From positions 117,770,851 to 117,834,850 of the forward strand of contig JARDVH010000163.1 in assembly GCA_030324005.1 (NCBI GenBank): a stretch of 64,000 nucleotides of DNA, written 5' to 3'. The notes below the pieces were generated by a model that was not told the DNA's origin, did no database searches, and saw only the letters and a program-made list of their open reading frames with translations. The first letter of the stretch is position 1, and each line of letters begins with the position of its first letter. Position numbers and translations under genes: made by a program. This DNA comes from Negaprion brevirostris. Its lineage: Eukaryota. Shown here piece after piece: positions 58 through 35,800 of this stretch.

Positions 58-750
58 TGGGAATGACTGGCCATGGAAATAGACAAAAGTCTGACTTAGT
101 GTCCTATTAGGTATGGGAAGAGAATTGGAGCCTCTACTGAATTTCCTGAAGAATAAAATTGCTGGTAGTAAGAGACAAGCTGCTGTATTATTCCTCCATT
201 AGATAGTAGCTTGGTGGCAGAGGATGAACATTAAGTCTTGGAGATTGACTGCTGCAAAATAAGGTTTTTGTCTTCACGTTCTGAAGGAAAAGAAGCATAC
301 TGGTGTTTTATTTAAGTTACAGGATGGTAGAAGGAAATATATTAGGCTTTGATTCTCCCAATGTTTTCAGAATGGAACCGTGTGAGCAAAGGAAACCTGA
401 AGTTGAAGGGTGGACATGGGTTGCCTCATTACCAAAAAAGAAGAAAAGTATGCCTTTAGTTTTATCATTACCAGTGAAGTGTAATATGAGGAGTAATGTG
501 TTTTCAGAGTGGAATGTGAATGATTTGGATAATGAAAAGGAACTGGACCTTCTATTACAGTTTTTGGATGAATTCTACAAAAAGGATGACTTATTGAAAG
601 CATATGAAGCCTTTGATAGATTTATGAAAGCAGATGATCAACTGATGGACAAATATATCATGGACTCCGATAGGTGGTATAATAGACTAAAGAAATTTGA
701 GCTTGACATCCCAGAGTCTGTATAGGCATTTAAGTTACTTGATTGTGCAC
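58..750 (+). mobile_element. Ty1/copia-type LTR retrotransposon remnant: LTR end, PBS and degraded gag
   Basis: AATAAA at 152; TGGTGGCAGAGGATG at 212-226 complementary to the tRNA-iMet 3' end; gag-like ORF 303..725 (LSLP...FLDEFYKKDDLLKAYEAFDRF...YNRLKK) continuing past a stop as AFKLLDCA. Confidence 0.7.
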
Positions 751-5775: not shown

Positions 5776-5859
5776 ATGGAGGCGGGCCGGTTTGCGGAGG
5801 GGCAGTTCGAGGGAAAAGAAATCCGCATCATCGGCTCGGAGCTGGTGGAAAATTACACG
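5776..5859 (+). CDS. NISCH: NISCH coding exon 1 ([28 protein letters not shown])
   Basis: GGGATGG Kozak context; donor ACG|GTGAGA; phase 0; start of the PX domain. Confidence 0.92.
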
Positions 5860-11800: not shown

Positions 11801-14800
11801 CAGATTTCAGTTTCTACTCTAATTGCTGCTGCAGTGGCCCAGAAAACTAGCTGCACCTTCTAAATCAATTGGCAGCCGTGAGCTTCTCAGCTAGAGGTTA
11901 TCAAATCTTTGGTAAATGTTGGCACACTCCTAGCTTCCTGAAGACGATATTAACAGTCTAAAGAAACTCAGGAGTATCACTGCATAAATTGCTTTTAAAT
12001 CAACAAATGCACAGATTTGACACCCCTTTTGAACTACATTGGCAAAAAAAGGTTTTTGGGGTTTTGATTTCAAATTTGTATTCAAAACAATTTGCTCTGT
12101 AACTTGCCATGTTTCTTGTGATGTGCTTAATAATTTAACACCAGTGTGCATTGGAACTTGGCTTTCATAATTATAACAACTCCCCATAATTTTGTTTTTC
12201 TGTTCTTGGCTTCTGTTGTTTGTGTCTGCACCAGACTTGGGCTGCTGTCACTGCTGCTTTGTACTGGCTGTTTGTGTGCTTATTGCAATGAAATTCTGAT
12301 ACAATAAGCTTCGAATAAGTATTCTGGATAATTAAACTGTATTGTGGGTATCTTGAGCCTTTTGAAAAAAATTTGATCGCTCACCTTGTGTTTTCTACGC
12401 GTCTCTCTTATTCAAGTTTGATGTTTTGTGATCTACCTCAGTTTCAGACTGCAAAAACATATCCCTTTTTAAAAAATTTGTAGTTCAGTTGAGCAAAAAA
12501 TGGTAACAGAATTAAAAATAAGTCATCAGACCCAGATATGTATTCCAGTGCTCAAGGAAGCAAAACTATTTTGAAACAGTGATTGTGCTTAAAGACTAGA
12601 GGGTGGTAAATGTGACACGTTATACAAGAGAGGGCAACTGGATAAACTAGAAATCAGAAGCATTTAATCATCATTTTATAAGTAAACATCTTGAGTTTAT
12701 GGAATAGTGATGCAGTTAGTGTACACTGAGACTTGACAACCCCAATTAGGTCATGATGAATTTGTAAAGGACAGATAAAACTTACTTGGCTGTTTATGAG
12801 GAAATCGCATTATATAAAAATTAACGCAGAAGCCATTTTACTTCTGGATTTTCAGAAGACAATTTTGATAAGGTTCACAGTAAGCAACTAAGGCACGAAT
12901 GAAGAGCTGTTCACAATAGAGTCTGGGCATTGATGTGACCCATTGATCTCTGCTGAAGCTTCTTCTCTTGCATTCGCTGTAATTGAGTTGGATAAGGACA
13001 CGTGGGGCATTATGGTGTTTGCAGATCCCAGAGTCAGGGGCTTCGCAAATCTGAGAAGGAGATTGAAAGAAGGTACAGGTGGAATCATGAAGTAGGTGGA
13101 GAGTCGGCAGATGCAGTTTACTGCAGGGATCTATATTGGGTATGTTTTGGAGGCAGCAAAAAGTTTGAATTTAATGCATCATCCTTAAAATAAATGGACA
13201 TCCAAAGCCATTTCTCAAATGTGCATTGAGGAAAATAAGTTTGGAGACACTATGTATAAGTTTGANNNNNNNNNNNNNNNNNNNNNNNNNNNNNNNNNNN
13301 NNNNNNNNNNNNNNNNNNNNNNNNNNNNNNNNNNNNNNNNNNNNNNNNNNNNNNNNNNNNNNNNNNNNNNNNNNNNNNNNNNNNNNNNNNNNNNNNNNNN
13401 NNNNNNNNNNNNNNNNNNNNNNNNNNNNNNNNNNNNNNNNNNNNNNNNNNNNNNNNNNNNNNNNNNNNNNNNNNNNNNNNNNNNNNNNNNNNNNNNNNNN
13501 NNNNNNNNNNNNNNNNNNNNNNNNNNNNNNNNNNNNNNNNNNNNNNNNNNNNNNNNNNNNNNNNNNNNNNNNNNNNNNNNNNNNNNNNNNNNNNNNNNNN
13601 NNNNNNNNNNNNNNNNNNNNNNNNNNNNNNNNNNNNNNNNNNNNNNNNNNNNNNNNNNNNNNNNNNNNNNNNNNNNNNNNNNNNNNNNNNNNNNNNNNNN
13701 NNNNNNNNNNNNNNNNNNNNNNNNNNNNNNNNNNNNNNNNNNNNNNNNNNNNNNNNNNNNNNNNNNNNNNNNNNNNNNNNNNNNNNNNNNNNNNNNNNNN
13801 NNNNNNNNNNNNNNNNNNNNNNNNNNNNNNNNNNNNNNNNNNNNNNNNNNNNNNNNNNNNNNNNNNNNNNNNNNNNNNNNNNNNNNNNNNNNNNNNNNNN
13901 NNNNNNNNNNNNNNNNNNNNNNNNNNNNNNNNNNNNNNNNGGTGCAACTTGTGGGCCGAAGGGCCTGTTTGTGCTGTAGTGTTCTATGTTCTAGAAGATT
14001 AAGGTGGAATTTAAGCAGTTTCCCAAAGGTACATTGCAAACTATTATTCCAAATGGTTAGTAAGTTTGAAACCAACACGCAAAACTCTGAATTAGCTGCA
14101 GAAAAATATAGGGAAAGAGTTTTGCACTTAAAGGATTCAGATTTTGGAATGTTTTACTGTGAGGTTAACAAAATGGCAATTGTTTGATAATTTGAAAGGA
14201 TTGGCTAAATAATTAAAAAAGGCTATAGCAGGCGAACAGGGAAAGTGGTATTTGGTTTAAATAGAAGCTGACACATGCATAGTGGTGAACAACAGCTTCC
14301 TGTGACTATGTGAAGCATTTTTGTTCATTGGATATATGTGATTTATTGACCAATCCTTTGTGGTTGATGTTGTCCTCCTTCGTGGAGATTTACATAATGG
14401 TGTTTACCAGGCTATTTCAGAAAGTATTAGGTGTCAGTATGTCTGTGATGTGGATGTCAGAGGTGATTGGGTTCCCTTTTGATAGCTTTAACAGTCAGTT
14501 TTGAATTGCTTGTGTGTGACACATTTGCCCATCTGAGAGGAGGCTCATTCCATTCATGTTGGCCAAGCCAAGTCAGTGTTAATTAAATCTTAAGAGCGTG
14601 GGTTGTATGGGCAGAATATTCAGGCATATTTTCCAAAACTACATTGTCTGCTTGCTGTTGAATTTTTTTTTAATGCCCAAGTCCTTGAGACTGATCTTAT
14701 GTCCAAGTTGCACTTTATTGCTCAAACATGGTTGGATTCTAAGGTTGGAGAAGATAGGTAGAGAAAACAATTGTGTGTTTTCCAGTTGGTTAGTGGGTGG

Positions 14801-17800
14801 AATTTTCATCAGTCTGAAGTTGTATAGTCGCCTTTCAAAAGTGTCTCCTTTTGTCTCCCAACCACCGGGAAATACTAGGTCAATACCTGTTCAATGATGA
14901 ACCTTTCCAGTGGAATGGACAGTTGTTAATGAATAAGACCACAATAAATATCCTCAGCAGATTGGTAGTGTGTTGTCTATCACTTTTTAAAATTATTTTC
15001 TGTAACTGCTGTTAGATAGTGAAATGTATATTTTTCTTTTTTCACTGCTCCCTCAAGTTGCTCTATCAATGCATTAAGAAGGCCATCATATTGCTAAGTA
15101 TTTCTTTGGTTCCTGTTTCTTCATGCTCTAGTGAATGCTTTGCGTTTGTACCTGACACTTGCTTTGATTAATTTAAAATGTAATGGTCTGATGTATGAAG
15201 TTTTCTATGATGCAGTAAATGTACAGAAAATCTAATGGTCTGTGCCATTTCAGCTTTAAGAAATATTTTCTTTACCATCTTTATTTTGTTTTAGCTAACT
15301 GCAGAAAAGAAGATTGACAAAAACCTACTTCCACCAAAGAAGATCATTGGCAAAAATTCCAAAACATTTGTAGAAAAAAGACAGAAAGAGTTAGAAGCCT
15401 ATTTGCAAACCCTTCTAACGAAGTTCCCATATGCTGCACCAAAAGTTTTATCCTTTTTTCTGAATTTTCATCTATATGTAAGTTTTTTTAAAATAAATTT
15501 CATTTTATAACAATATNNNNNNNNNNNNNNNNNNNNNNNNNNNNNNNNNNNNNNNNNNNNNNNNNNNNNNNNNNNNNNNNNNNNNNNNNNNNNNNNNNNN
15601 NNNNNNNNNNNNNNNNNNNNNNNNNNNNNNNNNNNNNNNNNNNNNNNNNNNNNNNNNNNNNNNNNNNNNNNNNNNNNNNNNNNNNNNNNNNNNNNNNNNN
15701 NNNNNNNNNNNNNNNNNNNNNNNNNNNNNNNNNNNNNNNNNNNNNNNNNNNNNNNNNNNNNNNNNNNNNNNNNNNNNNNNNNNNNNNNNNNNNNNNNNNN
15801 NNNNNNNNNNNNNNNNNNNNNNNNNNNNNNNNNNNNNNNNNNNNNNNNNNNNNNNNNNNNNNNNNNNNNNNNNNNNNNNNNNNNNNNNNNNNNNNNNNNN
15901 NNNNNNNNNNNNNNNNNNNNNNNNNNNNNNNCATGTGCAAAATGAAAATTCTAGTAACTTGGTGTGTGGCTTGATATTGCTTGCTGAAAAAAAAACTGCA
16001 ACCCTGGCCAACTTCCCATTCTTTCCTTCCTATCTCCTCCAACTCTACACCCCTCCAGAATATGTGCACTCCTTCAATTCAGGTCTCTTGAGCAACTGAG
16101 ATCTAACTTGCTCCACCATTCACATCTCCTCAATTATTGAAGCAGTCCATGTCCAAATACAGCAAGATCTGGACAATATCTAGGCTTGAGCTGATAAGTA
16201 ACATTCATGCCACAAATTGCCAGGCAAGGACTATCTCCGACAAGAGAGAATCTAACCACCGCACCATGACATCCAGTGGCATTAATCATGCTGAATCTCC
16301 CACTATCAACATCTTTGGAATTATCATTGACCAGAAACTGAACCTGACTAGCCACATAAATACTGTGGCAACAAGAGTGGGTCAGAGGCTAGGAGCCCTG
16401 TGGTCAGTAACTCTCCTTCTGACTCTCCTGTTCTTCTTTATCATCAACAAGAAACATCAGGAGTGCAATGTAATGCTGTCTACTTGCCTCGGTGAGTGCA
16501 GTGCCAACAGCACTGAAGAAGCTTAACACCATCCAGCCCATTGATTGCTACTCCTTTCATAAACATTCAATTCCTCCATCATTAATGAGCAACAGCAGCA
16601 GTGTGTACCATCTGCAAGATGCACTTATGAACTCACTAAGGTTCATTAGGCAGCACCTTTCAAATCCATGACCGCTGACATTTAGTAGGTCAAGGGCAGT
16701 AGATACCTCAGGACACCACCACCTGGAAATCACTCACCATCATAACTTGGAAATGTATTGCTGTTCTTTCACTGTTGCTGGGTCAAAGTCCTGGAGTTCT
16801 CTCCCTAACAGTATTGTGCGTGTACCTATGCTTCAGGGGCTGAAATGATTCAAGAAGGCTGTTCATCATCACCTCAAGGGCAACTAATGGTGAACAATAA
16901 ATACTGGCCTGGCCAGCGATGGCCATACCTCAGTAATGAATTGTCCTGATAAGTGCAAAGCAGAAAGCTTCAACAACTTGCCCTTTTGTTCAACAATACT
17001 CAAATTCTGTGCTGTCAAATGTTTATCATGAATATTTGGTATTTGTGAAGGACAGTATATTTTCAAGGCATTAATCACTTAAGGTGATCTCAAGAGAGAA
17101 ATGATAATTCTCTATCTTTATCTCATCAGTATTAAGTATGACAATAAATCAGGGAAGATTTGTGCTTTTAGAAAAACTACTTTTACAGTAGCGTTGAAAT
17201 ACAGAACAAAAGGTGNNNNNNNNNNNNNNNNNNNNNNNNNNNNNNNNNNNNNNNNNNNNNNNNNNNNNNNNNNNNNNNNNNNNNNNNNGAGAAATAGAGA
17301 AAAAGAATGAACTGTGGAAAAATGTCTTAATCTTAATGATTATCCATATATGTAGATCACGGTTGCACAGATATGAATATTTTGATTTGGTTCTTAGAAT
17401 ATTGTGTTCTTTTGTAGGAGATAAATGGCATCACAGCTGCCCTTGCTGAGCAACTGTTTCACAAAGGTATGGTCTTTAATTTTGAATGCTAAATGTCTTG
17501 ATGTTGTGGGTTGCAAATTTGTCTGCCTGGTTTTTTTCAAGATTGCAATAATTTCAGTGGGCTATTAATGAAGCATTATGTTGATGTCTGAAATTTTAAG
17601 GCATGTATAAAATGGAAAAAGACTCTCCTTGTAACTATGACAATATGATATTTTAACATTTAGTGTCTCAAGCAGGCTTACATTAGCACTGCAATGAAGT
17701 TACTGTGAAAGTCCCTTAGCCACCACACTCTGGTGCCTGTTCAGGTACACTGAGGGAGAATTTAGCGTGGCCAGTGTAGCTAATCAGCATGCCTTTTGGA

Positions 17801-20800
17801 CTGTGGGAGGAAACCAGAGTCAGGAAATCAAATCTTGTAATTTTAATAAGTAGTCTTATTAGTTAATCAAATTGGCAGAAATAAATGTCATTTTAGTAAA
17901 CTTTCCATCATTTAAAATATCTGTTCTACATGTAACCCAGTTTACATTTTTTTTATCAGTTGAAGTGTCATTTGTCTAAAAATGTTTATATTAATACAAT
18001 TTATAGGTGAGCAATTGCTCTTGGCAGGTGAAGCTTTTTGTCTTAAACCACTACAGTTGTATGCGATCACCCAACAACTGAGACTGGCCAGTCCTACTTG
18101 TGCCAGTGGTGATGCCAAGACTGACCTTGGACACATCCTGGACTTTGCTTGTAGACTCAAGTATTTAAAGGTAAAAATCAGTTCTCTAAAATTGTAATTG
18201 TAATATCTTGTGTATAACTGGTACGTTTTGCACTGTCCTTATTGGCTTGTAAATTTTGGTTTGTGCCTGTTGATATTTTGGCACAACTGTAATTTTAATT
18301 TGCTTTTAAAATTCTGGTGGTGCAGCCAGTAATTTTAATTTTTCAGAAAGAAAAATATTTTATTGCAAATTAGAGAATCTTATTACTTCAAAATATTTCA
18401 TGGGTAGAATACACTTGACATTCAACATAATATTCTAAGCTTCTATCTTCCTTGATCAGCCTGGTTTTTGAGGATGGCGTTGCCTCTTTGCAATTTTGCT
18501 GAGTTTTTGCAAAGTGATGCAAAATAGAATCAAAGCATTTCATCCATAAAACAGAGATTGAACTTGACATGTGGGAAACAATCTCTTCAACTTCAATGCA
18601 GCACAAAAATGAGTTATCAGTGCAGCATTGCTTTTTTTAAAAGTCACGAATATTTCTTCAATTTTAAATTGTGAAGGACTAAAGATCTCTCAATTTTTTT
18701 TGACAGATAACAGGCTCCAGAGGATCGGTTGGTACCAGCAATATTCAAGAACGTCTCCTTAAATTTGATTTATCAGTTTTCAAGTCTGTTCATCAGATTG
18801 AGGTTAGTAAAAGAGAACAAATAATTTAGTTGACTGAAGTCCAACCTTTTCTATTTTAAAAAAGCCCCCCAGTAATTTATTTCTTAATTTCCAGTGAAAC
18901 AACAAATAATGGGAGGTATATTTGTGGCCGAATACCTGTGCTTAAGGAAAGTAATTCCTGGATGCTTTGAGATAAATTTTAGAAAAAATTAACATGTGCT
19001 GCTGCTTTGCACAAAATGGCATCATACAGTTAGTGAGGAGAGAACTGAATTGTTCATTCTCCTTCAAGTTGTTTCATACTCCAATAATTTGGAAACTTTG
19101 AAAAATAATGGATTTAAACAGTTTCATTTATGATATTATTCTATTTGGTTTTTATCAAACTTAATGTTTGTATTGCATTGTTACAGATAAATAACTGTGA
19201 GGCTAAACAAATTATTGGACTTCCTTCCCTGAAGAACTCACTGGCCACAATGAGTGTGACTTTTTCAACTGCTTCAATGAAAGTATGCATCTAATTTTGT
19301 GTGTGTTTGTATTTATAGTTGTGTGTTTATATATTGAATTTTTTTTGGTTCTATTTATCCCTTCTTGTCTGAAGGTATGTAATCATATTGCGATGTGGTT
19401 TCATGATTGTTCCTGCCCCTTTATTTTGTAGCAGGGTGCACCAGTTAGCAGCCAATAATGAAGACAGTGGAAATTTATTTTGATGAAAGGCTGAAAATAG
19501 ATTCTAAGTCACAGCCTGTTTGAAAGTTAATTTTTAGGAAGCAAGAGCCAACTCATTTCCACNNNNNNNNNNNNNNNNNNNNNNNNNNNNNNNNNNNNNN
19601 NNNNNNNNNNNNNNNNNNNNNNNNNNNNNNNNNNNNNNNNNNNNNNNNNNNNNNNNNNNNNNNNNNNNNNNNNNNNNNNNNNNNNNNNNNNNNNNNNNNN
19701 NNNNNNNNNNNNNNNNNNNNNNNNNNNNNNNNNNNNNNNNNNNNNNNNNNNNNNNNNNNNNNNNNNNNNNNNNNNNNNNNNNNNNNNNNNNNNNNNNNNN
19801 NNNNNNNNNNNNNNNNNNNNNNNNNNNNNNNNNNNNNNNNTCCACTGAAAGTGTGAAATTTGCTGGCTGATCCAGAGCTGTGTGTTTCTGGGCTCACGAG
19901 TGAAGTTGCACAGGCTTCTGCCCCATTGGTGGACAGATAGAGGAGGAACCTTGAACCTGTAGAGCATGGCAGGACAAGGTGCCGACATTATCCTCTTTGT
20001 TATACACACCTTGGATCCAGCCACAATAAAGAAAATGTGGTATAATTCTAAGTCTAAATGGTGTGTGGCTTGGAGGAATGCTTGTGGGTGATGGTGTGCC
20101 TTCTGCCTTTCTGTTTCTTGAGACTCCTGTTCAATTGAACAGGTTGTTTATCGAATCTTTTGTTAAGAATAGAGATGATAAGTACATCAATCCACAAAAC
20201 TGAAAAAGTGGAACATGAAAATAGCAGGTTGCAACCTGGGGAAGTTCGAGAGACGCAATTTTAAAAAAACGTCTGGGTTCACATCCTTTTTTGCATTATG
20301 AACAAAACCATTTTTCATTTTTATAGTTTAGGAAATGTGATGTTTAAATTGAGGATTTTTATTTGTGTAAGTGATGCCATTCTCCCATCATCAGTTATTT
20401 GATAAAATTGATTTGTTTTAATCAGGATATCCTTGTGCCAGAGGCTTCTGAATTTGAACAGTGGGAGGTGGAGGGGATGGCATCTGAGCATCCGGTTGCT
20501 GCTATTATCCCAAGGTGGAGCATGCTGACCACACTTGATATGAGTCGTAACCAGATATTTAATATTGATGAATCAGTGGTAAGGAAATATATTATGCATT
20601 CCATTCAAGAAAAGGCCATTGGGTTCAGCGACCACTCACCTTTTTCAATTGACTATGTTCTGTGCTCCCAACTATGCATTTGCTTTTTTCCTCTCACTTC
20701 CCTGCACCTACAAAGAAATGCATAAAACAGGAGTTTTGTCAGACTTCTTCCCAACTCCTTGAGAGATCAGCCAGGAAGAGTATTTCTGTGCTAATTGAAC

Positions 20801-23800
20801 AGATTTATGTCATAAACAAAGGCAAATTACTGTGAATAAGACAGTTTAAATCCAAAATTTTAAACGTTATTTGCCTCTTAAAAATCACTTTTTTTTTCCT
20901 TTGTTGTATACAGGATCATGAAAGATCAGGTTGAGAAAAGGAAAACTAGTTTGTGTTTCAATATGAAATTCATATGTAGAGGTTCTCAAAACATTGATTT
21001 TGTTTTACCATATATGACCAGTTGGAGCGAACTGATTTTATGCTTATCAAGTATGAAACTGATTCCAATTTTTAATTTAGAGCGTGTAAACTCATGTACA
21101 GTTTCCAAATCCACAAACTTGTGCATGGATTGGATAACATGGAGTTGCAAGAAAATCCGAAAGATATGATGATTTGAATTATTATTGTGTCTTTGAAAGA
21201 CTGCCAAGTTGTAAAGCTTACTGCTTTATGATGTGATACTATTTGCTCTTAATTGTCCATTTGATCCCTGCATAGGCATAGGATTGTCAGAGGTCAGTTT
21301 TGTATGCTTCTAAAGTTAAAAGTTAAAGTTTATTTGTTAGCCACAAGTAAGGCTTACATTAACACTGCAATGAAGTTACTGTGAAATTCCCCCAGTCGCC
21401 ATAGTCCGGTGCCTGTTTGGGTCAATGCACCTAACCAGCATGTCTTTCAGAATGTGGGAGGAAACTGGAGCACCTGGAAGAAACCCGTGCAAACTTCACA
21501 CACATATTGACCCAGGCTCGGAATTGAACCTGGGTCCCCGGTGCTGTGAAGCAGCAGTGCTAACCATGTGTTACTGTGCCACCCCTTTTTGTCCATTTGT
21601 AATGAGAAGTGGCTTTGACCTGCTTTTTTGTGTTGCCAAGTGGTCACATTCCTTCACTAGCTATTTCAAGTTAAGGGTGTTGCCTAGGATACCATTCTGC
21701 ACAATACTTTGGGCTTTTGCTCCTTTCATGATGACTCCTTTCTCTATGCCTAATTAATGCAGACTCTAGCTTCAAAACATTAAAATCACTGCTGCTGAAA
21801 TCATTTTGTTTGTCCCTTGCATTTCATTCTAGCAATAAAATGAGTGAAATTTGAATAGTTTGTGATTTAATATAAACTAGAGTAGCAAATGTAGTAAAAA
21901 GTAACTTAAAAATAAAGGGCAAGGTTATAGGATGAATGCAGTGATTGCAGATTTGGACACTGGTATACAGTGAAACAAGTAAGGTGGGAAGTAATGACTT
22001 CATGATTCAGCTAGGTTATTTTCGGCCTCTTAATGGATGTTGAGAAGTGAGCTGCTTGCTTTTCTTTAATGGGAGANNNNNNNNNAATTAAGGACTTGTG
22101 CCATTAATTGGAAAATAATTAAATCATCCTGAAACCTAGCTCAGATGCCGTGGCGTGTAGTACATACAATTGAGAATAAAATTCTTAAAGTACCCACAAC
22201 TTAAACTTGGATGCAGCTTGTAAGGAATGGAGAGTTTAGCGTTCAAGGACACCTTGCAGGTGAACCTCAGACGAGTTCACCACGGATTGGGAGAAAATGC
22301 ACAAAGAACTATCTGGGGAGCAATTTCCTTCAAACTGCAAAGGACAAATGGAAGCTAGAAAGACCAGGAAGTCCCGACCAAAATCAGACAATTCAACCTT
22401 GCTCACAATGTGTGAAGCCACGCAGGCCTGCAATTGGATTTCACAGCCATGTTAGAACACACAACAGATAACTGTATGTCAAAAGAAACAACCATTTTTG
22501 ATAAAGAGAAATTGACAATGAATTATAGTGGGAAATGTTACTTTTTATATTGGATTGGAGAAGGACTACAAGACAATTCAACAGGTTTCATATTCATACT
22601 GGACCCCAGTATATGACAGAATTGTTTTCCCCTTAAAACAAAAATCAAAAATTTTTTTATTCCCGTTGCTTAATATGTTTCTTCCCTGGTGACCAGCCCA
22701 CAAGATGAAGAGCAGGAATGGAGAAGTGGAAAAATTGAAGTGAGAAAAAAGGATGATAAAAATGGATGAATGGGATGAAAAGAAGAAACAAATGGAGTAT
22801 CCTCTTAAGTTGTTGAATTTGATGTTCAATGTGGAAGGCTGTAAAGTGCCCAATTAGAAGATGAGATGCTGTTCCTCTAGTTTGCGTTGGAGTTCAGTAG
22901 ACCGTTGTAAAAAGCCAAGGACGAACATCCATCATTATGAAGTGCTTCGAAAGGTTAGTCATGGAACAAATCAATTCCAGCCTCCGGGACTACCTGGATC
23001 CACTACAGTTTGCCTACCACTGTAACAGGTCCACAGCAGATGCCATTTCCCTGGCCTTGCACTCAACCCTGGAATACCTAGATAACAAGGACACCTATGT
23101 CAGACTCCTCCTATTTATTGATTACAGCTCAACCTTCAACACTGTTATTCCCACAAAACTCATCTCCAAACTCGGTGGCCTGGCCCTCAGCATCTTCTTC
23201 TGTGACTGGATCCTGAACTTCCTAATTCACAGACCACAATCAGTATGGATAGGCAACAACACCACCTTCATGATCATCCTCAACACTGGTGCTCCACAAG
23301 GTTGTGTTCTCGGCCCCCTACTGTACTCCTCATACACCTATGACTGTGCAGCCAAATTCCCCTCCAATTCGATTTTCAAGTTTGTTGATGATATTACCGT
23401 AGTGGGTCGGATCTCAAATGATGAGAGAATACAGGAATGAGAGAGAATCTGGTGCACTGGTGTAGCAACAATAATCTCTCCCTCAATGTCAACAACACAA
23501 AGGAGATGGTCATCGACTTCAGGAAGCATAGANNNNNNNNNNNNNNNNNNNNNNNNNNNNNNNNNNNNNNNNNNNNNNNNNNNNNNNNNNNNNNNNNNNN
23601 NNNNNNNNNNNNNNNNNNNNNNNNNNNNNNNNTGGTGTAGCAACAATAATCTCTCCCTAAATGTCAACAACACAAAGGAGATGGTCATCGACTTCAGGAA
23701 GCATAGAGGAGAACGTGCCCCAGTCGACATCAATGAGGTCAGAGTAGAAAGGGTTGAGAGCTTCAATGCCTCTACTTTCTCAGAAGACTAAGGAAATTTG

Positions 23801-26800
23801 GCAAGTCAGCTATGACCGTCACCAACATTTACAGACGCACCATAGAAAGCATTCTTTCTGGTTGTATCACAGCTTGGTATGGCTCCTGCTCTGCCCAAGA
23901 GCGCAAGCAATCATGAAAGGTCATGAAAGTCCAATCTGTCATGCAAACCAGCCTTTTATCCATTGACTCTGTCTACACATCCCTCTGCCTTGGCAAAGCA
24001 GCCAGCATTATTAAAGACCCCACGCACCCCAGAATTCACTCTTCCACCACCTTCCTTCAGGAAAAAGATACAAATATCTGAGGTTACAGCCTCATCATAG
24101 GGGGCTAATCNNNNNNNNNNGAGAAGAGTAATTTCTTCATTTGAGAGTTGTGAATTTTTGAACTTGTCTACTCCAGAGGGTTGTGTATATTTAAGACTGA
24201 GGGGTACATTTTTGATGTCTTAACGCATCACGGGAAATGATTAGTTGGAGAGAAAGTGGAGTTGAGGCAGGAGATCAATCATGATATTGAATGGTGGAGC
24301 AACCATGAGGGGCAGTGTGATCTAGTCTTGCTCCTATTTCTCTTGTTCTTATGTTACAAATACTATTTTAACATTCAGTTAGCAGGTTTCTTCACCTTGA
24401 CACAATTAGTCTGCTTGACTTTTTCCCACAATAAAAATGGCTGGATTCAACTTCATCCAATTAACCAGTTTATGAAATAGAAGTGCATTATGTTAAGTGT
24501 GCATACATGATGATGTTGTAGTATGTTAATTACGTAATTATTTTGAATGCCATTTTGAATGCAGTTGATTCTGTTGCTTTATCCAAAGTTACTGTGCATG
24601 AGTTTTATAATGTTTTTGTGCATTTGTTTTACAGAAATTAATTCCTAAAGTAGAATTTGTGCATTTGTTTTACAGAAATTAATTCCTAAAGTAGAATTTC
24701 TGGATCTAAGTTACAATGAAATAGCAGTAATGGAAAATTTACAGGTAGGACAATTACTGAATCATTATGAATTGTTTGGAACCTACAGTATTTGCCAAAT
24801 ATCAAAGATACTAATTAGTCCATTCTCTTGAACAACTGGTGTATTATTTTTGTGGTCAGTCTGCACTGTTTAGTAGACCCTTGAAGCTCATTGAAATGAA
24901 TGGCGCTGTTGGAAAAAAGCAACAGCTTATATTCGTACAGTATCATTTTTAACATGGAAAGCCTTTCAAAATGGTGTAATGAATAAGATGGGTGCTCAAG
25001 TCAAAGAATGAAAGAGTAGGTGACCAAAAGCTTTACTTTAAAGACAACTTTGAGGAGAAAGAGAGCAGTTATGGGAGGGAATTCCAGATTTAGTTTGACT
25101 CCAGTGAAGCGGTTGAGGTGAAGCTAGAGAAGAATGCCAATGTTGTTTAATGAAGGTGATGGGAGGGCCAACTTTGTTACAAAATGCTGCAGAATTTTTG
25201 AAAGGCTGAAGCTGAGGATGGAAATCAGGCAGATAAGACAGCAGAACACCAAATATTATTCAGCATGTTGGGTGTTAGCAAGAGCAAATCAGAGCTAGGA
25301 CAATATAGACTCAAAAGTCCCAACAGAGCAGCACAAGTTGAGTATGCAGAAGTAGGCAAGAGAGTGGAATGAAGGTAATACAGAGAATACAGTGTAGCTC
25401 AGTTCATTGGTGGATCTAGTTTTGGAAAGCACAAAGTAAAGATGAGCAAACTAGACAATTAGTCTAATTTGTATTAGAGATGAAAAGGAAAGAAAATACT
25501 AAGAAAAAAACGAAGTTAATTTTAAGGAGAACCAATGCATTGACTCTGCATAGATTGGGGAAAGAATTGGCTAAGATATTGGGTACACATTGGCAAACAT
25601 TCACTAATTAACAAACATAACATAGGTTGAGTATCTAGGGTGGCACAGTGGTTAGCACTGCTGCCTCACAGCACCAGGGCCTGGATTGGATTCCCAGCTT
25701 GGGTCACTTTCTGCTCGCCTGTCCTCCCTGTGTTTGCATGGATTTCCCCCGGGTGCTCCAGTTTCCTCCCACAGTCCAAATGGCATGCTGGTTAGTTGTA
25801 TTGGCCATGCTAAATTCTCTTTCAGTGTACCTGAATAGGTGCTGGAGTGGTGACTAGAGGATTTTCACAGTAGCTTTATTGCAGTGTTAATGTACTTGTG
25901 ACAATAATAAATAAACTTTAAAACTTAAAGGTGGAGTTCCTTGGATAAGATTAACATTGGAGTTGAAGTCACATAACCAATCTGGAAATTGAAAGAAGAA
26001 CAAGAGTAATAGGCTCTTGTCATGGGAGCACTGTAACTTTTGGTCAAAATCCTGGGACTCCCTATGTAAAAGCACTGTGGGTGTAATTGCAGCAGTCCAA
26101 GAAATCGGCTCAGCACCACTTTTTCAAGGGCAATTGCGAATGGGCAATAAAGATGTTGGCCTAGCCAGCAGTGCCCTTATTATGTGAAAGATTTTTTAAA
26201 AATCTAGAGCCAGCATAAAAGATCAAATGGCATTTAGGTGGGGAAGCAATGAATGGTTGAAGATCTGAGGAAAAACTATCAAGTAACGAATGGAAATAAT
26301 GCTATATGAATGTAGTTATTGGATAGGGCCAATTAGACATGATAGTGTTTTGTGGCAGATGATAGAATAAAGGAGATCATAAATGGATATTTGCTGTAGT
26401 CCTTTGAATTTGGTAGTGGGATTTAAGGTGCGCAGCAAGAAGGAGCGGGACTATTAAATGGGATAACTATTGATAAAAATGCAATACACGAGAGATAACC
26501 TGAACAGCTGCCAACTAGTCNNNNNNNNNNNNNNNNNNNNNNNNNNNNNNNNNNNNNNNNNNNNNNNNNNNNNNNNNNNNNNNNNNNNNNNNNNNNNNNN
26601 NNNNNNNNNNNNNNNNNNNNCTCCCACACCCCAAAGATGTGCTCTTAGGCTGATTGGTGTAACAAATTGTCCCTAAGTTAGTCTCCCCTCAATCTGGATT
26701 CCAATGTGGAGTGCCATAAGCGTAGACATGGGTCATGGGTGGAAGGGGGGACTCACAATGCTGAAATGGTGGCGTGGGCTCGTTGGGCCAAAGGCCCTGT

Positions 26801-29800
26801 TTCTTGTGCTGTGGTTCTTTGTCCTTTGTCACATTTTGTTTAAACTCCCAAAATAATTAATTCAAAAGTTTGTTATTACATTAAAAGTCTTCCTGTAATT
26901 GAAAGAAATTTTGAAAAAGAGCTTTGATGTGTTGCAGCTTTCTTTACAGTATGAAATAAATTATTTTGTAATAGTCCTATTATTTTGGAAGGAATGTTAG
27001 AGATAATTAAGGAGGCAGAAGGAGTGATGAGTTGTAGGATTGTGAGATCTTGTAAGGATGCTCAAAAGAGGAAACTTGGTGAATGGGACAGAGTAGTGAT
27101 GAATGGAGAGGGAAGTGGGCTGTTGATGCTTGGAAGAAGGATAGTGCTGAGTATGGTGTTGGGAGTATTGAGAAGTCTAGGTGTTTGAACTGAGTTTGAA
27201 TTTTGACAATTTATCTTGCAAGGAAAGCAAGTGCTGGGTAGGCATATATGTAACAACAAGAAACATGAGATATTGTTTTTGCTCCTTGTTATCGCTATTT
27301 TATAATTGAAAACTTGTCCTTGATGTTGCTACTCAAACTATCTGCAATAGCATTAAATTGATGTCTTTTCTTCTGTATAGTTATGCAGTGCTCTTGCTTC
27401 TCCCAATCTGAAACTAATGTGTTTATTTCCCTTTGCAGCATCTCTATAATCTCATTCATTTGGATTTGTCGTACAACAAAATCAAAGTATTGCAAGGTGT
27501 TCATACAAAGCTTGGAAACATTAAAACTTTAAATTTGTCAGGAAACCAATTGGAAAGTCTGTCAGGTCTTAACAAACTTTACTCGCTGGTAAACTTGGAC
27601 CTCAGCAATAACAAAGTATTGCAGGTAATTTTTACATGCTTGTTTATTGTGTAAATTTACAATTAGATGATCTTACAAAATGTTTATAAAAAATGTGGTT
27701 AGACTTCCACTGTATGTTGTCCATTCTGGGCACCATATCATTAGAAAGGATGTCAAGGCTTTGGAGAGGATGCAGAAGAGATTTATTAGAATCCTACTGG
27801 AGAAAGTGGCATTGGTTGCATGGCAAAATCAGTGTAACTTGCTCTAGAAATGAAAAATTCCAAATAAATTATACAGGGGCCTTGTAAATCGTCCTGGGGT
27901 GGTTGCTATTAACTAGAAACTGGTCTAGATTAGCCATATGAATACTGTGGCTACAAAATCAGTCAGAGGCTAGAAATCCTGAGGTGAGTAACTCGCCAGT
28001 TGCCATCATCAAGGAGGCTCAAGTCAGATATGATGGAATACTCTTCACTTGTTTGGAAGAATGCAGCTCCAGTAGCACTCAAGATAGATACTCCATGCCA
28101 TCCAGGACAGTCCACCCTGCTTGATTGGAACCCCTTACACAAACATTCACTCCCTCCATTACCAGGCACAGTGGCAGCAGCGTGTACCATTTACAAGATG
28201 CACTATAGGCATTCACCAAGGCTCCTTGTGCAGCACCTTTTGAAACCCATGATTGCTACCACCTAGAAGGATTAGGGCAGCAGACACTTGGGAACACCTG
28301 GAAGTTCCCCTCCCACTTGCCATCCTGACTTGGAAATGTATCGCTGTTCCTTTATTGTCACTGGGTCAGTATCCTGTCAGTTCCTCCCTAACAGCACTGT
28401 GGGTGTATCTACACCACAGCGACTGCACTAATTCAAGAACTCAGCTAACTACCATCTTCTTGGACAAATGGGGATGGACAATAAATGCTGGCCTTATCCT
28501 GTGAATGAAAAGAAAACAAAATGTGATATCAAGACACACAGCAGATACTTGGTCAGATGATTATAGCTTGATCAAAGAGCTAGGTTTTAAGGAGTGCCTA
28601 AAAGGAGGAAAGAGATGTAATGAGGAAATTCCAGAACTTGGCACCAAGGCAACTGCTGAAGGCATGGCAGCCAATGGTGAAGTGATCAAATTTGGGATTG
28701 CTAAAGAGACCAAAATTACATGAGTTCAAATATCTTGGAGGGTTGTGTGTCTGGAGGAGATTAGAAATATAGAGAGATGAAACCTTGAAGGAACTTGAAA
28801 CCAAAGAGAACTTAAAAATTAAGATACTGTACAAGTGGTAGCCAAAGCCAGCGTGATATATGGACAGAACAAGTTAAGACATGGACAGAATTTGAATAAC
28901 CTCAAGTTTTTTGGGTGGAGATTATGGGAGGCCAGCCAGTAGTGCAATGTAATACTCTAGTGTGGAAGTTACAGCAGATGAGCTGAGAGGTGAAACTGGG
29001 TAATATTATTATGATGGAGAAAGTTGCTTATAGTGAAAATGTACATATGAGGTCCGAAGCATCACTGGTACAATGGTGTAAGTGGTTGGAGATATAGCTA
29101 GGGGAGAGAGATTTTATTAGGGGAATAGGTGGCACCGATCCTCAGTCTAGTTTCTGTTAAGATCATGAAGTTGATGCAGTCACCCACAATAAGTTTATGG
29201 ATGGGTAGGGGCCTTGTTTACAGGTAAACTGCCATTCTGGAGTGAGGGGTGGTGATTGCTGATCATCAGTGGAAGGGATGAGTTGGGTGAAGGAAATTGT
29301 CAAGATAAAACCCCAGTGGGCACATTGGACAGGAAGTCAAGGAAGTGGGATGGGACAGTTAGGATTTGTGCTTGTAATGAGCCTGTGCCAGTTTTCAATC
29401 CATGCTAACACATTTCCTCCAATTCCATGGGCTTTTACTTTACTTGTCAGATGCCCTTTTGAAGTCTAAGTACATTACGTCTACAGGTTTCCCTCTATCT
29501 TCTCTCCTTGTTACATCCTCAAAGAATTCAGGCAAATTTGTCAAACATAATTGATCTTTCATAAAGCAATGTTGACTAGGTTTGATTGTGTTCAGAGTTA
29601 GGTGGATTTGGGCAGGTTTGATTGTGTTGGAGCTTAAATAGCAGAGGTTTTGGAACAAAAGGTCAGAGTTGAAAAGAAGCAAAATATTGGTGCAGGGAAG
29701 GTGTTAATAGAAGAATTGCAGCTCTGACTTAAAGCAAAAACCTGAGAACAAGATGCAGATGGACACTTTTTTGGAGGAGGGGTGAAGAGGAGGCATCAAG

Positions 29801-32800
29801 ATGGAGATCAGAGTTCATTGTCTAAAGTTGTTGAAATTAAAGTCTGTCCTACAGAGAGAAAATGGCAGTTAGTTTAGTGAAATCAGTGGTGTTTTCTCAG
29901 TAGTTCAGCAAACCTGTAAACTTTCTTTCCTTCGTGGCCTTTGGTTTTTGGTTCCTAGTTGACCTGCATCTTACAAATTATTTTTATTTATATAGTTCAC
30001 AACTAGTTTTGACAGATGACATAAATTTTACAGTAATTGCATCAGTTACCATAAATTGGCAGCATATTTGATAATTTTCACCTGAATTCTCTGATGACTT
30101 ACTTGCTGGAAAATCATGCAGTGTTCTGTCCAGTTACCAGAGACATTAAGGGGAAATCCTTGGCCACCGTTGTATTAAATTCAGCCCTATTATGTTTTGC
30201 ATTACCAAAACCGCTCTCCTGTTCAATTACTAAATTTAGACTTGTCCATGTGGTATTCATGCACCGTATTTTCTATACCTGTATTGTTTTGTGGAGCTTG
30301 GTGCATGTATGTGCTCAACCAACATAAGCTTGGCTGCCCAGAGCAAATAAATGCATTTCTATAGAAAGTACAACCTATCCTGATGTAAATGAACTTTTTT
30401 AGATTGAAGAAATCCGAAACATTGGGAATTTGCCATGCCTCGAGAAGGTCGTTCTGAGTAACAACCCTCTGAGCATTATTCCTGATTATAGAACAAAGGT
30501 GCTTGCACAGTTTGGAGATCGAGCCTCCGAGGTAAGATTGCAATAGTCGTCATTGCGTGAATGAAATAGGAAATGTGGAATGTTTTAGAAGCTACTTTCC
30601 ATTGTTATTTATGGACCATCCTGTTGAGATGGCTGTAAAACATTGAATATTATAATTTAAGTATTATTATAACTATTTAAATCTTAACATGCATTAGTTT
30701 CTGTAAACAATGATTTGGAAAAATGCATTTATTAAAACGTCATTCTTGTGTAATTTTGTCTTTTAATGAAATTTATTGTAAACCATTTTTACCATGTATT
30801 TTATTTTGTAGTAGCTGGAGTTTTTATTATGTAGGGTTGATCAGTTTTGAGGGACTGAAACCAAGAGTACTTGGATGAAGTAACATGGCATTGTAATCTA
30901 ATCAAATGACATTTGAGATCTCAGAACTTTTTTTGGTATATAATTTATTGAACTTGGTTGCTGGTTCAGGAGCTTTTATACACTTGCTTCTGATCCTTCA
31001 TTTGAGGGTGCAATTCCTTTCCTTGGACAGAAAATTAAATAGAAAATTTTGGGTTTTCAGTAACATTTCCAAGCCTGTAGTACCGTGAAATACTGTCGGA
31101 AGTTCTCCCAAGAGTGACTTGCTTTTGTGCGTCATCTAGGTCTGTTTGGATAATACTGTTACAACAGAAAAGGAACTTGATACAGTTGAGGTGCTAAAGG
31201 CAATTCAGAAAGCCAAAGAAGCAAAAGATCGAATGAATAGTACAGATAAAAAGGTGAGACTGTAGTAATAAAATTTGTTTCGAAGTTCAACAACTTAATT
31301 ACTTTGGTATTTAGTGTTTTTGTCCAATACTGAGTTCCATCCACTATAAAGATTAGGATCCATGCCACAGGGATATCCTGAACTACATCGTGAATTTTAC
31401 TTTCCCTCCCTGATGCTCTCCCTTGTTGGTGGATAATCAGCATGGGATGTCTTGGTGGATTTGCTATTCCTCAGTTTGAAGTTACCTAGGAAGCAATCTA
31501 ATTGTTTTTTTAAGTTGTATTTGGGTGTCTATAATCTAAGCTACAGCTCTCTATAAATAATGACATTTATCTAAAAAATGCTTTTGATGGGAGGGAGGAC
31601 TTGTTTCAGGATGTATTAGCTCTCTTTATTCTTGCTAAAATTAGTACTCTGCCAAGTTTAAGTTGCAGAGTCATTGTGTGTTTTCTTAAATAATTACATT
31701 TTTTTGTTAGATCAGTGAGGAAGCGAGACTCGCTGCTCCAGGGTCCAAACCCAGCTGCTTTTCTTATGCTGCTTGTCCTTCCTCTCCTCTGCTGCACCAT
31801 GCTGCCAGCTCCAGCCAAGGTAATCATGTATGTATCGGGCTGCTGGTGTGGGCCATTTCTAGTTCAAGTGCTTGCTTGTCTGCATTTATGTGCTTGCATG
31901 CGTAAAAGGGATAGACCACTGCCACTTATAACTTGTGTACAAAATCAGTTATTGTACCAAATACTTCTAAGTTCCTTTTGAAAGCTAGGTGGATTGATGG
32001 ATAGCTAAAAATTCTAGAATTTTCTAGAAATGTGATCCCTTTCCACCTGTCACTCAGCAGTTTATAAATGAGCTTGCTGAGTAGATGGAGTTTTTAGTGC
32101 CTTTAATACCTAAAATGATTGATGTATCATTTTTGGAGACTTTACTATTTTTCAAGTAGCTCAACTTTTAACCCCTTGTAAAACATGCATGGCAAGCAGG
32201 TAAGTATGTAACCTTTTATAACTCTGCTCTAAACGTGTGACTCGAAAGCTAATTTATCCTGCAACCTGTTGTTGTATGTCCGTTACCTGGATCTTTTAAA
32301 GCTCTAAATGCACTTGTCTCAGCAAGGATTTAGGATTATTTTTGTAGCTGAACTTTTATTACTATGGTACTATTAAGCTAAACCAGCTTTTTCGCATGAA
32401 TGTAAGATTCAACTGAAATGTCATCAGAATGATGTTTTCCACATATCGCATTTTAAGATTTAAGGTTCATTAGGTTAACCCAATGACCATTTGCTTAATA
32501 TATGACTTCTTTAATGTAAGCTCAGCTTGGAGTAGCTGTTAGAATGACTTTAATGGTGTTAATCAATACTTTGTATCCACAATTGGTAAATCATAGAGCT
32601 GCAGTATGGCCTGTGGTTAAGGGTTTGGCTTTTGTCAAACTTGAGTCAAGCAGGCAGAATGTCTGCAGAAAACTGGAAAAGAATATCAACACAGTGGGAG
32701 TGAACCCTTTGAGTAAGACTTGTGTAATTAGTTTAAGATTTCCTAGTTGAAAAAAAATTTAGAATCATGAGGGGAAGTGGTGGTGTAGTGGTATAGTTGC

Positions 32801-35800
32801 TGGATGAATAATCAAAAGGCCTAAGTTAATGTTCTGGGGACATGGGTTCAGACTCCACTAGCTGCTGTAGATATCCCACAGCAGCTAGTGGTATTTGAAT
32901 TCAGTTAATGAATCTGGAATATAAAGCTGTTCTCAGTGACGGTAACTATGAAACTATTGTTGATTGTCAGAAAACCCATCAAGTTTGCTGATGTCTTCAG
33001 GGAAGGAAATTGCCCTCCATGACTCTAGACTCCAGACTCTCAGAAATGTGGTTGACTCTAAATTACCCTCTGAAATAGCCCAGCAAGCTATTCAGTTCAA
33101 AGGAAATTTGGGGATAGGCAACAAATGCTTGCCTTGCCAAAGATGACACCCATGTCCCGTGAAATCATAAAGAAAAAAATCATAAGGTCCATGTTGGAGC
33201 CATTTGATCTGTTGTACCTGTGACAGGTTTCCCAATAGTCCTGCACTTTTTATTTTTCAAAGAAGATATAACCAATTTCCTTAGCTTTGACTATTCTTTC
33301 AGGCAGTGCATTTCAGTTCATAACATCTCATTGCCGTACCTTGCCAATTGCCTATACCTGTAGTATCTGGTTACTGCCTCTATCAGAGGTACTTCTCTCT
33401 CCTACTCTTTTATAAAATTGAATGCCTCTATTATGTCTTTCCTTAACTTTCTAGAAACATAGACAATTTAAGGAACGATTGTTTATCCATCATGTCAGTT
33501 ACATCTGATTAGAGCTGTGTGGCATAATCTTATTTTCTAGCTATTGACCCATAGCTCTGTGAGTTAGGGATGTTTGAGTGCATGTCCAGTTGTTTTTTTA
33601 AATGTGATGAGGGTTTCACCCTGTACCACTATTTCAGATCCCAATTACCTGCAGTTCATCTACCAGTTACTTTAAAGCTATGTGCCTGGTTATTGACCCC
33701 TCTGTTAAGTGAAATTGGTCCTTACTATCCATTGTGTCCAGCCCCTAATAATTTTAAACACCTCAAATGGATCTCTCTTTAGTGTCCTGTGTTTCAACAA
33801 AAACATAGCAGCCAATTTTTGCTTATCGTTAGAATTCTTCATTCTTGGCCACATGCTTGTAAAGCTCCATTGTACTCTACCTAGATGTAATCACCTTCTT
33901 ACACTAACCAGTATTTTCTATTGTTGTAGCATAACATCCCTGCCCTTTCACTTTGTCTTGGCCACTAATGGATGCCTTCTTAAGTACTTTAGCTATCTGC
34001 CTTGCTACCTTCAGGAATCTGTGGACACGAACTCTAAGGTCTCTCTGTTCCTCTAACATCATTTCAATATCCTACAATTCGTCACCCTGGTCTAGTTTGC
34101 CATTTCCAAATGCATTACCCTCACATTTCTTTGGAATTTTATTTGGCATTTTCTGCTGATCTGACCAGCCCACTGATCTTCCTGCAGTCTTCAACTTTCT
34201 TCCTCACTATAGCCAATAATCATACCTTCTGCAAACTTCTTAATTGTTTCCTACATTTGAGTCTTAAATTATTGATCTACATCCTGAACAGCCAGGGACT
34301 CAGAACTGAATCCTGTATAATCCCACTGGAAACAACCTTTCACTCACTCGTGTGCACACGCACTCACATGTGCCAATGAGTGTTGAATCCTTGGAAGTAT
34401 TGTCATTTAGGCAAGACGTTAAACCGTGGCCCCTCTGTCCTTTGAAGTCAATGTAATATATCCCACAGCACTATTTCAAAGAAGCATAAGGGAGTTATCT
34501 TCACTGTCCTAGCCAATATTCAACCCTCAAACAACATCGCAAACAAAAAAAATCTGGTTGTTATCACAGTGATGTGTGTGGGAGCTTGCTGTGCACAAAT
34601 TTGCTGCTGTGTTCCCTACATTACAACAGTGACTACTCAAAAGTATTTCACTAGCTTTCAGTGATTGTGAAAAGTACTCTTCAAACGTAAAACTTGCATT
34701 TTTTTTTGAGTTTGATAACTACAGACACGCACCATAATAGTGCTCAGTAAGATGGCAAACACTTGTAACTTATTAAAAAGTGTTTTTTGTTCTTGACCAT
34801 TGTTAAACTGCATAGTCATCTACTATGTAGAGCCATTGTTGTAGTTTTCATTCCAGTTTTAAATTACACTACCAAGCTTAAATTCATTTGAATGTCTTAA
34901 TACAGACAGTTCTTCTGTGGCTGTGAAGGTTATAGGACATTACTGTTTTTGCATAAGCTAATAAAACTTAAATGTTTGCTTTTTATTGGTAAATGTTGAA
35001 GGTGATGTGACCAAACTCATATTTAGAATTATATTTTCAAAATGCAATAATCCTCTGTAAAATAATAAAAGGAAACATTGATCTTTATTAGCCATGCATC
35101 CAATATGTGATTCCAATTTTGCTATCAATGAATAATTCAGATTTTCATTTTTATTGCAGAAATAGGTACTAAATCAGCCCTACTCAGCAATCTACATCAA
35201 AATGACAGTTTGACTCCTATGACTTCTACAATTACCCAGGGATGCTCCAGCACAGCAAATATGTATGAAATCAAGAGAAAGGTAATATTATTGCATCCAT
35301 TTGAAAGTTGATTGCTGACAGGTAGAAATTGAAAAGCGTTGCAATTACTTTACAGGCTTTTTTTTTTGGTCTTTGATTTGCGCATAAAAGATGCTGGTTA
35401 TATGTATATCTTCTATCTATTAATTGCTCATGAAATCCCTGCACCTCAGGAAGGAAGTATAGGCCTTTGAAGGAGTGGAGTACAGATTCATCAGAAAATA
35501 CTGGGGTGCGAAGGGATATTCCCTTGCATATATGAATTGCAGTCAGATGTTTAAAATTTGGTAGATGGAAGAGAAACTATTTCTTCTGGTGGCGTACTCC
35601 AAACACGGGGGCCCTAAAGTTAGACCTTAAATCAGATTAGGCTGTTTGATTATGATAGGAACCACTTCCTCACAAAAGGGTAGTGGAAATCTGGAACTCT
35701 TCTCACACCCTGCCCCTCTTTCCTCTCCACCCAACCCCCAAAAGATAAACTGTTGATACACAGTGAATTGAAAATTTCAAACTGGGATCAATAGTTTTTT

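What the first reader, a model, noticed from the sequence alone, without database searches (positions are those of the whole stretch)
24615..24744. 41-bp tandem duplication gives NISCH exon 9 two near-identical 3' splice sites, the first frameshifting
Seen: the pyrimidine tract, CAG and first 21 exon bases are exactly duplicated with no N-gap at the site. Splicing to AG 24634 reads [15 protein letters not shown] (TAA 24680-24682), truncating the protein in the LRRs. Only AG 24675 restores the conserved frame. The upstream copy keeps the ancestral intronic context, so the productive site would need a new branch point inside copy 1 (TTAAT at 24638-24642 is a candidate). Inference: this is a hypomorphic or null allele, a newly arisen NMD-coupled switch, or a local assembly error.
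Basis: partly seen in the sequence, partly recalled or inferred. Interest (0 to 1): 0.7.

Follow-up and report, generated by a model that had tools for sequence, protein, structure and literature searches.

The report
Duplicated splice acceptor in shark nischarin
A shark carries the splice signal in front of one nischarin exon twice in a row, a copy that is in its sequencing data and absent from its relatives; the gene likely still works through the second copy while the first would only waste some messenger RNA, which is a known and usually tolerated kind of accident.

Summary
In detail: an exact 41-bp-period duplication of the intron 8/exon 9 acceptor of nischarin in a carcharhiniform shark; the upstream AG gives a stop at codon 319. 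It is not an assembler error: an independently assembled run holds the copy junction (depth 3), and depth modelling mildly favours homozygosity (about 3:1). All 6 relatives' runs that cover the site have one copy. The 20 other exons found are intact. Most likely a tolerated, leaky allele in which the downstream AG carries enough splicing and upstream use is lost to NMD. No RNA was available, so site usage is inferred. Nothing supports a regulated switch. The kind is known (amphioxus 'mirages', USH2A c.3812-3_3837dup), and this scan noted it before on other DNA (ANK2, SMG1, a sea urchin gene). The one unusual point is the branch-point loss 4 bases from the duplication, which could be compensatory.

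The parts
5776..54337 (+). nischarin (NISCH) coding region; 20 coding exons found, the exon for residues ~1184-1233 not found (an 819-N gap lies at 51740-52558 where it is expected)
   Evidence: tblastn with P0001, boundaries and phases, own-genome search for the missing exon empty
20426..20578 (+). exon 8 (153 nt, ends in phase 0), donor GT at 20579
24605..24611 (+). remaining branch-point candidate of the upstream acceptor (TTATAAT, A24610 at -25); 4 bases found behind 24611 in relatives are missing here
   Evidence: (table 5c); role as branch point inferred
24615..24655 (+). copy 1 of the 41-bp unit: 20 nt of pyrimidine tract with CAG plus 21 exon bases
24633..24634 (+). upstream AG; use would add 41 nt and shift the frame
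24636..24642 (+). AATTAAT, A24641 at -35 of the downstream AG; same heptamer as the motif that relatives have at -25
   Evidence: role inferred
24643..24649 (+). TCCTAAA, A24648 at -28: preferred branch-point candidate for the downstream AG
   Evidence: AG-distance rule from PMC9284458 (passages); role inferred
24649..24653 (+). two further AGs (24649-50, 24652-53) inside copy 1; both would give early stops (codons 304, 315)
24656..24696 (+). copy 2 of the 41-bp unit
24674..24675 (+). downstream AG, the only in-frame acceptor
24676..24744 (+). exon 9 (69 nt, phase 0-0, one leucine-rich repeat), donor GT at 24745
24680..24682 (+). TAA reached when the upstream AG is used (codon 319, 62 nt before the exon 9 donor)
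27439..27624 (+). exon 10 (phase 0 in): joining exon 8 straight to it keeps the frame

Best explanation
This is a 41-bp duplication of the nischarin exon 9 acceptor that is present in the animal's sequencing data and private to its lineage, and it is most likely a tolerated, leaky allele in which the downstream AG is predicted to carry enough splicing while upstream use would be lost to nonsense-mediated decay. Shown: the duplication, its support in an independent assembly of reads, its absence and the presence of 4 extra bases in 6 relatives, the reading frames, the intact remainder of the gene. Inferred: origin by replication slippage between two imperfect repeats 82 nt apart on this haplotype (41 nt apart before the event; 8 of 12 letters alike, 3-letter exact overlap); branching at A24648 (or A24641) inside copy 1 for the downstream AG; partial weakening of the upstream site by the 4-base loss; NMD of the upstream product; some in-frame skipping of exon 9. 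Both acceptors are identical over -20..+24, so the choice must come from branch point and position.
For: Junction contig 24629-24685 (57 nt, depth 3, 0 differences) beside a 44-nt repeat contig (depth 5) and flanks of depth 4.6, 3.2, 6.5 in run X1. Simulation accepts homozygous 679, heterozygous 231, 25% minor 36, 10% minor 1 of 40000 each at 150-nt reads. 6 of 6 covering relatives' runs (X2, X3, X4, X8, X9, X15; six studies) have one copy and 4 more bases. Exons 1-19 spliced with AG 24675 give 1181 residues, no stop, 1135 of 1185 columns identical to Mustelus; last exon open to its stop; relative-rate test not significant (23 vs 15 changes, chi2 1.7). A24648 lies 1-5 nt before the two stray AGs, a distance reported as tolerated (PMC9284458 passages); the gene's own exon 6 acceptor has the same layout (CTAAAG at -25, 20-nt AG-free zone). 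Flanking introns are 4.1 and 2.7 kb; in that class the upstream-3'-site preference is significantly reduced (PMC9225289 passages). Amphioxus mirages do not disturb splicing by RT-PCR (PMC3087553 passages). Nisch-null mice are born and reach adulthood, smaller; heterozygotes are not smaller (PMC8835720 passages).
Against: No RNA of this animal was examined, so usage is untested. Upstream 3' sites are preferred overall, and in exon-definition contexts the bias is only reduced, not shown reversed; classical duplication experiments favoured the proximal copy, with one study finding the opposite (as summarised in PMC1557585; originals not held). The upstream site's remaining motif scores 7 in my crude pairing score, no worse than the best motif of 8 of the gene's 18 other acceptors, so it is probably still usable. 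An intact gene does not exclude a very recent null. X1 may be the sample that the window was assembled from, so it is an independent assembly, not an independent animal; the junction contig has only 27-30 letters on each side of the joint.
Confidence: 0.58

Rival explanations
1. The upstream AG dominates because it keeps a usable branch point and is nearer the donor; the allele is a strong hypomorph or null, recent, and tolerated because loss of nischarin is not lethal or because the animal is heterozygous.
For: Upstream preference among competing 3' sites overall and in classical tandem duplications; upstream motif still in the gene's normal range; heterozygosity is disfavoured only about 3:1; null mice live; identical copies allow a very recent origin.
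Against: No other lesion in 20 exons found and no rate acceleration; a gene dead over a private branch of 1% would be expected to show stops or frameshifts (rough P of none 0.01), which excludes an old but not a recent loss; downstream site has the better-scoring motifs (9 and 8 against 7).
Confidence: 0.18
2. Neither acceptor works well and exon 9 is mostly skipped in frame, giving a nischarin short of one leucine-rich repeat.
For: Exon 9 is 69 nt, phase 0-0, and skipping gives no stop; 2 of 120 homologues listed (P0078, P0084, snake gene models) lack exactly this exon; in USH2A c.3812-3_3837dup in-frame skipping was the main outcome, 60.9% of reads (PMC11311777 passages).
Against: The USH2A duplication copies only 3 intron bases, whereas this one copies the whole 20-nt tract, so both sites are complete; exon 9 shows no listed difference from the six relatives; the snake models are predictions.
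Confidence: 0.11
3. The duplication is a library artefact (a chimeric molecule amplified a few times) or a mosaic event, carried into both assemblies from the same low-depth run.
For: Only one run holds it; depth is 3; that run may be the window's source (warns of this); another run with the same organism label (X2) has one copy.
Against: Junction-to-repeat depth 3:5 fits most molecules carrying it; a 10% minor form is accepted 1 time against 679 (which does not model PCR duplicates); X2 differs from the window at 11 of 624 letters and is closer to other organisms, so it is not the same haplotype; no N at the site, unlike the window's three overlap artefacts.
Confidence: 0.08
4. A newly arisen, regulated poison acceptor that tunes nischarin levels through NMD.
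For: The frames are those of a poison splice site: stop 62 nt before the exon 9 donor with many junctions behind it.
Against: Private to one lineage (0 of 6 relatives), copies identical with no sign of tuning, no fold better than shuffles (z -0.3 to +0.5), no expression data.
Confidence: 0.05

Closest known systems
Amphioxus 'mirages' (Adh3, globins BflGb6 and BflGb9; PMC3087553, passages seen)
   Same: Tandem duplication of the 3' end of an intron with the 5' part of the next exon; unit 41 bp lies within the 10-72 bp reported for Adh3; copies carry AG signals.
   Different: Two copies only, in a shark; no array and no length polymorphism seen; splicing not tested here; accompanied by a 4-base loss upstream.
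Human duplications across an intron-exon boundary, USH2A c.3812-3_3837dup (PMC11311777, abstract and passages seen)
   Same: Duplicated acceptor whose first copy gives a premature stop; a frame-preserving exon that can be skipped.
   Different: USH2A copies 3 intron bases; here the full 20-nt tract is copied and branch-point-like motifs come with the exon start, so the second site is complete.
Engineered tandem 3' splice site duplications in globin genes (Lang and Spritz 1983; Kuhne 1983; Reed and Maniatis) - seen only as summarised in PMC1557585 and PMC9225289
   Same: Two sequence-identical acceptors compete for one donor.
   Different: Those used short introns and longer duplications (recalled, not read); this is a natural case between long introns.
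F7 intron 7 37-bp minisatellite (PMC1557585, passages seen)
   Same: Identical splice sites in tandem across an exon boundary, with only the authentic one used.
   Different: F7 repeats a 5' site; here it is the 3' site, where branch-point position matters.

Membership tests
nischarin (NISCH) | Orthology: PX, leucine-rich repeats, C-terminal PH domain in the conserved order | tested here: met
   Top hits are all named nischarin; PF25625 PH_NISCH_C 206 bits on the last exon; 20 exons colinear with P0001
Mirage-type intron/exon boundary duplication | Head-to-tail unit spanning an intron-exon boundary with its splice signal | tested here: met
Mirage-type intron/exon boundary duplication | Minisatellite-like array with length variation between haplotypes | tested here: inconclusive
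   Two copies only; one carrier run; relatives have one copy
Mirage-type intron/exon boundary duplication | mRNA uses the authentic, last copy | not testable with these tools
   No run laid was RNA of this animal; none listed on record as RNA
Poison splice site / NMD-coupled regulatory switch | Alternative site gives a premature stop more than about 50-55 nt before a later junction (rule recalled) | tested here: met
   TAA 24680-24682, 62 nt before the exon 9 donor
Poison splice site / NMD-coupled regulatory switch | Conserved across related species | tested here: not met
   Absent from 6 of 6 covering relatives' runs
Poison splice site / NMD-coupled regulatory switch | Regulated usage | not testable with these tools
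   Needs RNA from carriers
Assembler overlap artefact | Duplicate flanks a scaffold gap and the junction is absent from reads | tested here: not met
   No N between the copies, against 100 N in the three other near repeats; junction contig in X1
Pseudogene | Further stops, frameshifts or broken splice sites; faster protein change | tested here: not met
   None in 20 exons found; one exon not found; relative rate not significant

The most novel reading that the evidence does not exclude
A natural acceptor hand-over: loss of the intron's branch-point motif and the duplication are a compensating pair. The exon's own first bases, which happen to hold the same heptamer and a second good motif, were turned into intron and now serve as branch site, moving the working acceptor 41 bases downstream without changing the protein; both changes are fixed in the lineage.
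Probability: 0.17. Interest if true: 0.5.

Novelty: new member of a known kind. Interest (0 to 1): 0.27.

Why it matters
As it stands it is one more boundary duplication, better supported than most because the junction is in reads and the ancestral state is known from six relatives. It would matter more if the two neighbouring changes are compensatory: that would be a dated, natural example of a splice acceptor moving by duplication plus branch-point loss, and a four-construct minigene test could separate the effect of position from that of the branch point for two otherwise identical 3' sites.

Tried and rejected
8 of 24 listed runs were laid; X13 does not cover the site. Own-genome DNA search gave one place, no single-copy haplotig. 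The exon for residues ~1184-1233 was not found with this query. No protein of this species turned up in the cluster look-up or the second protein search. RNA structure as the selector: folds are no better than shuffles (local fold), rejected; an 8-bp hairpin over the downstream AG exists but is not significant. Single-exon Pfam scans were too short to pass cut-offs. Dating by copy identity: uninformative, identical copies are expected with P 0.2-0.8 over a private branch of 0.5-2%. No MaxEntScan or SpliceAI was available; a 23-nt acceptor score would be the same for both sites by construction. Literature: searches; none returned this allele (nischarin + shark: 1 unrelated paper, listing only). 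Two classical papers were not held. Supplements were not read; they are unlikely to bear on the claims.

Full report
Observation. The window holds an exact 44-nt match, 24615-24658 = 24656-24699, period 41. The unit is 20 nt of pyrimidine tract ending in CAG plus the first 21 exon bases. There is no N at the site; the nearest N runs are 24111-24120 and 26521-26620. None of 100 shuffles of the window gave an exact 20-mer repeated within 20-200 nt. The gene is nischarin of a carcharhiniform shark: the large exon is 95% identical to Mustelus asterias nischarin, and tblastn places 20 coding exons from 5776 to 54337. The duplicated acceptor belongs to coding exon 9 (24676-24744, 69 nt, phase 0-0), one leucine-rich repeat conserved from sharks to mammals (motif located in 109 of 120 homologues listed).

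Reading frames. With AG 24675, exons 1-19 give 1181 residues without a stop. With AG 24634 the first stop is codon 319 (TAA 24680-24682), 62 nt before the exon 9 donor, so NMD is predicted (rule recalled). The stray AGs at 24650 and 24653 give stops at codons 304 and 315. Two snake gene models among the 120 homologues lack exactly this exon (P0078, P0084).

Is it real? The window comes from a gapped assembly with 23 N runs. It contains three other exact near repeats (periods 144, 175, 146), and each straddles a 100-N gap, the mark of overlapping contig ends; the 41-bp one has no gap. The own genome has one place for this DNA. Run X1, assembled by another pipeline, shows the graph that a tandem duplication gives: a left contig ending at 24644 (depth 4.6), a 57-nt contig 24629-24685 across the copy junction (depth 3), a 44-nt repeat contig (depth 5) and a right contig from 24670 (depth 3.2), all without a difference from the window. 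The junction contig has 27-30 letters on each side, below the tool's 31-letter bridging rule, but 57 nt is the length expected for 27 junction-specific 31-mers. A Poisson simulation accepted homozygous 679, heterozygous 231, 25% minor 36 and 10% minor 1 of 40000 runs each at 150-nt reads; at 100 and 250 nt the homozygous-to-heterozygous ratio was 2.3 and 4.1 (read length unknown, PCR duplicates not modelled). X1 may be the window's source sample, so this refutes an assembler error, not a library artefact, and speaks for one animal only.

Relatives. Of 24 runs listed I laid 8. Seven are other than X1; six cover the site (X2, X3, X4, X8, X9, X15, from six studies; X8 at depth 2 only) and X13 does not. 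All six have a single copy, and all six have 4 more bases (TAAT) behind 24611 (tables 5 and 5c). They differ from the window by 1.8% (X2, 11 of 624) to 5.7% (X15, 38 of 669). With X15 as the most distant, both the duplication and the 4-base loss are derived in the window's lineage. At 8 further sites shown, X15, X9, X3 and X4 agree against the window (14 rows were not shown), so the private branch is about 1.2% or more. X1's left contig covers the 4-base loss without a gap, so it too is in the reads.

What the 4 bases do. In relatives the motif at -25 is AATTAAT, a full match to the nnyTrAy branch-point heptamer (PMC8531310, abstract). In the window the upstream AG has TTATAAT at -25, which keeps the conserved T and A but loses the pyrimidine. 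The downstream AG gains, from the duplicated exon start, AATTAAT at -35 (A24641) and TCCTAAA at -28 (A24648). My crude U2-pairing score gives 8 for the ancestral site, 7 for copy 1, 9 and 8 for copy 2. The effect is modest: 8 of the gene's 18 other acceptors score 7 or less. AGs more than 6 nt behind a branch point are the damaging ones, those within 6 nt are tolerated (PMC9284458, passages). The gene's own exon 6 acceptor has the same layout as copy 2.

Which site is used. Untested; no RNA of this animal was found. For: both introns are long (4.1 and 2.7 kb), and in that class the preference for the upstream 3' site is significantly reduced (PMC9225289, abstract and passages); amphioxus mirages splice normally (PMC3087553, passages). 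Against: upstream sites are preferred overall, and classical duplication experiments mostly favoured the proximal copy, one the opposite (summary in PMC1557585). The human USH2A boundary duplication gave mainly in-frame skipping (PMC11311777, passages). A mixture is the most likely result.

State of the gene. All 20 exons found are open with AG and GT (one GC) ends; 1135 of 1185 aligned columns match Mustelus; window-specific versus Mustelus-specific changes are 23 vs 15, 20 vs 14 and 22 vs 15 with three outgroups, none significant. The exon for residues about 1184-1233 was not found and probably lies in the 819-N gap. A gene dead over a 1% branch would rarely stay free of stops and frameshifts (rough P 0.01, with assumed rates), so an old loss is unlikely; a recent one cannot be excluded, as identical copies are compatible with any age on this branch. 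Nisch-null mice live and are smaller (PMC8835720, passages), so reduced dosage would likely be tolerated.

Origin (inferred). The 12 letters at the start of copy 1 and those behind copy 2 agree at 8 places with an exact 3-letter overlap, as expected of replication slippage. The 4-base loss removes one unit of a short tandem pair, also a slippage-type change. The two changes lie 4 bases apart; they may be one complex event, two independent accidents, or a compensating pair. The data here cannot order them.

Known context and verdict. Boundary duplications are described (mirages, USH2A, F7), and earlier notes of this scan record the same kind in ANK2, SMG1 and a sea urchin gene (unchecked notes, used only as leads to papers that I then read in passages). 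My searches did not return this allele or a case of boundary duplication paired with branch-point loss, in a library that lacks most subscription papers. Verdict: real, lineage-private, new member of a known kind, most likely a tolerated leaky allele; regulated switch unsupported; interest 0.27, with the compensation reading (probability 0.17) as the part worth a test.

Noticed in passing
runs X1 and X2 laid on window 24300-25100: Both carry the same coded organism label, yet X2 differs from the window at 11 of 624 letters plus two short insertions and is nearer to organism B's run (about 5 differences over the same stretch). A wrong label, a cryptic species or a deeply diverged haplotype could explain it.
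   Followed up: partly
window 1353-1540, 23458-23707, 43152-43343: Three exact repeats of 44-75 nt, each on both sides of a 100-N gap: contig-end overlaps left unmerged by the assembler, not biology.
   Followed up: yes
window 11603-11605: Intron 2 of nischarin begins with GC (non-canonical GC-AG intron) by the boundary that fits the protein.
   Followed up: no
window 51740-52558: 819-N gap where the exon for residues ~1184-1233 is expected; not found elsewhere in the own genome with one query.
   Followed up: partly
window 24311-24369: Short piece of a very high-copy shark repeat (summed contig depth in the tens of thousands).
   Followed up: no
window 22901-23791 and 38662-39108: ORF fragments that look like LINE reverse transcriptase remnants inside nischarin introns (resemblance recalled, not searched).
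   Followed up: no
window 285-725: 146-codon open frame upstream of nischarin without a Pfam match; perhaps an exon of a neighbouring gene.
   Followed up: no
window 39799-41141: The large exon has a one-residue deletion and a two-residue insertion against Mustelus, both in frame.
   Followed up: no
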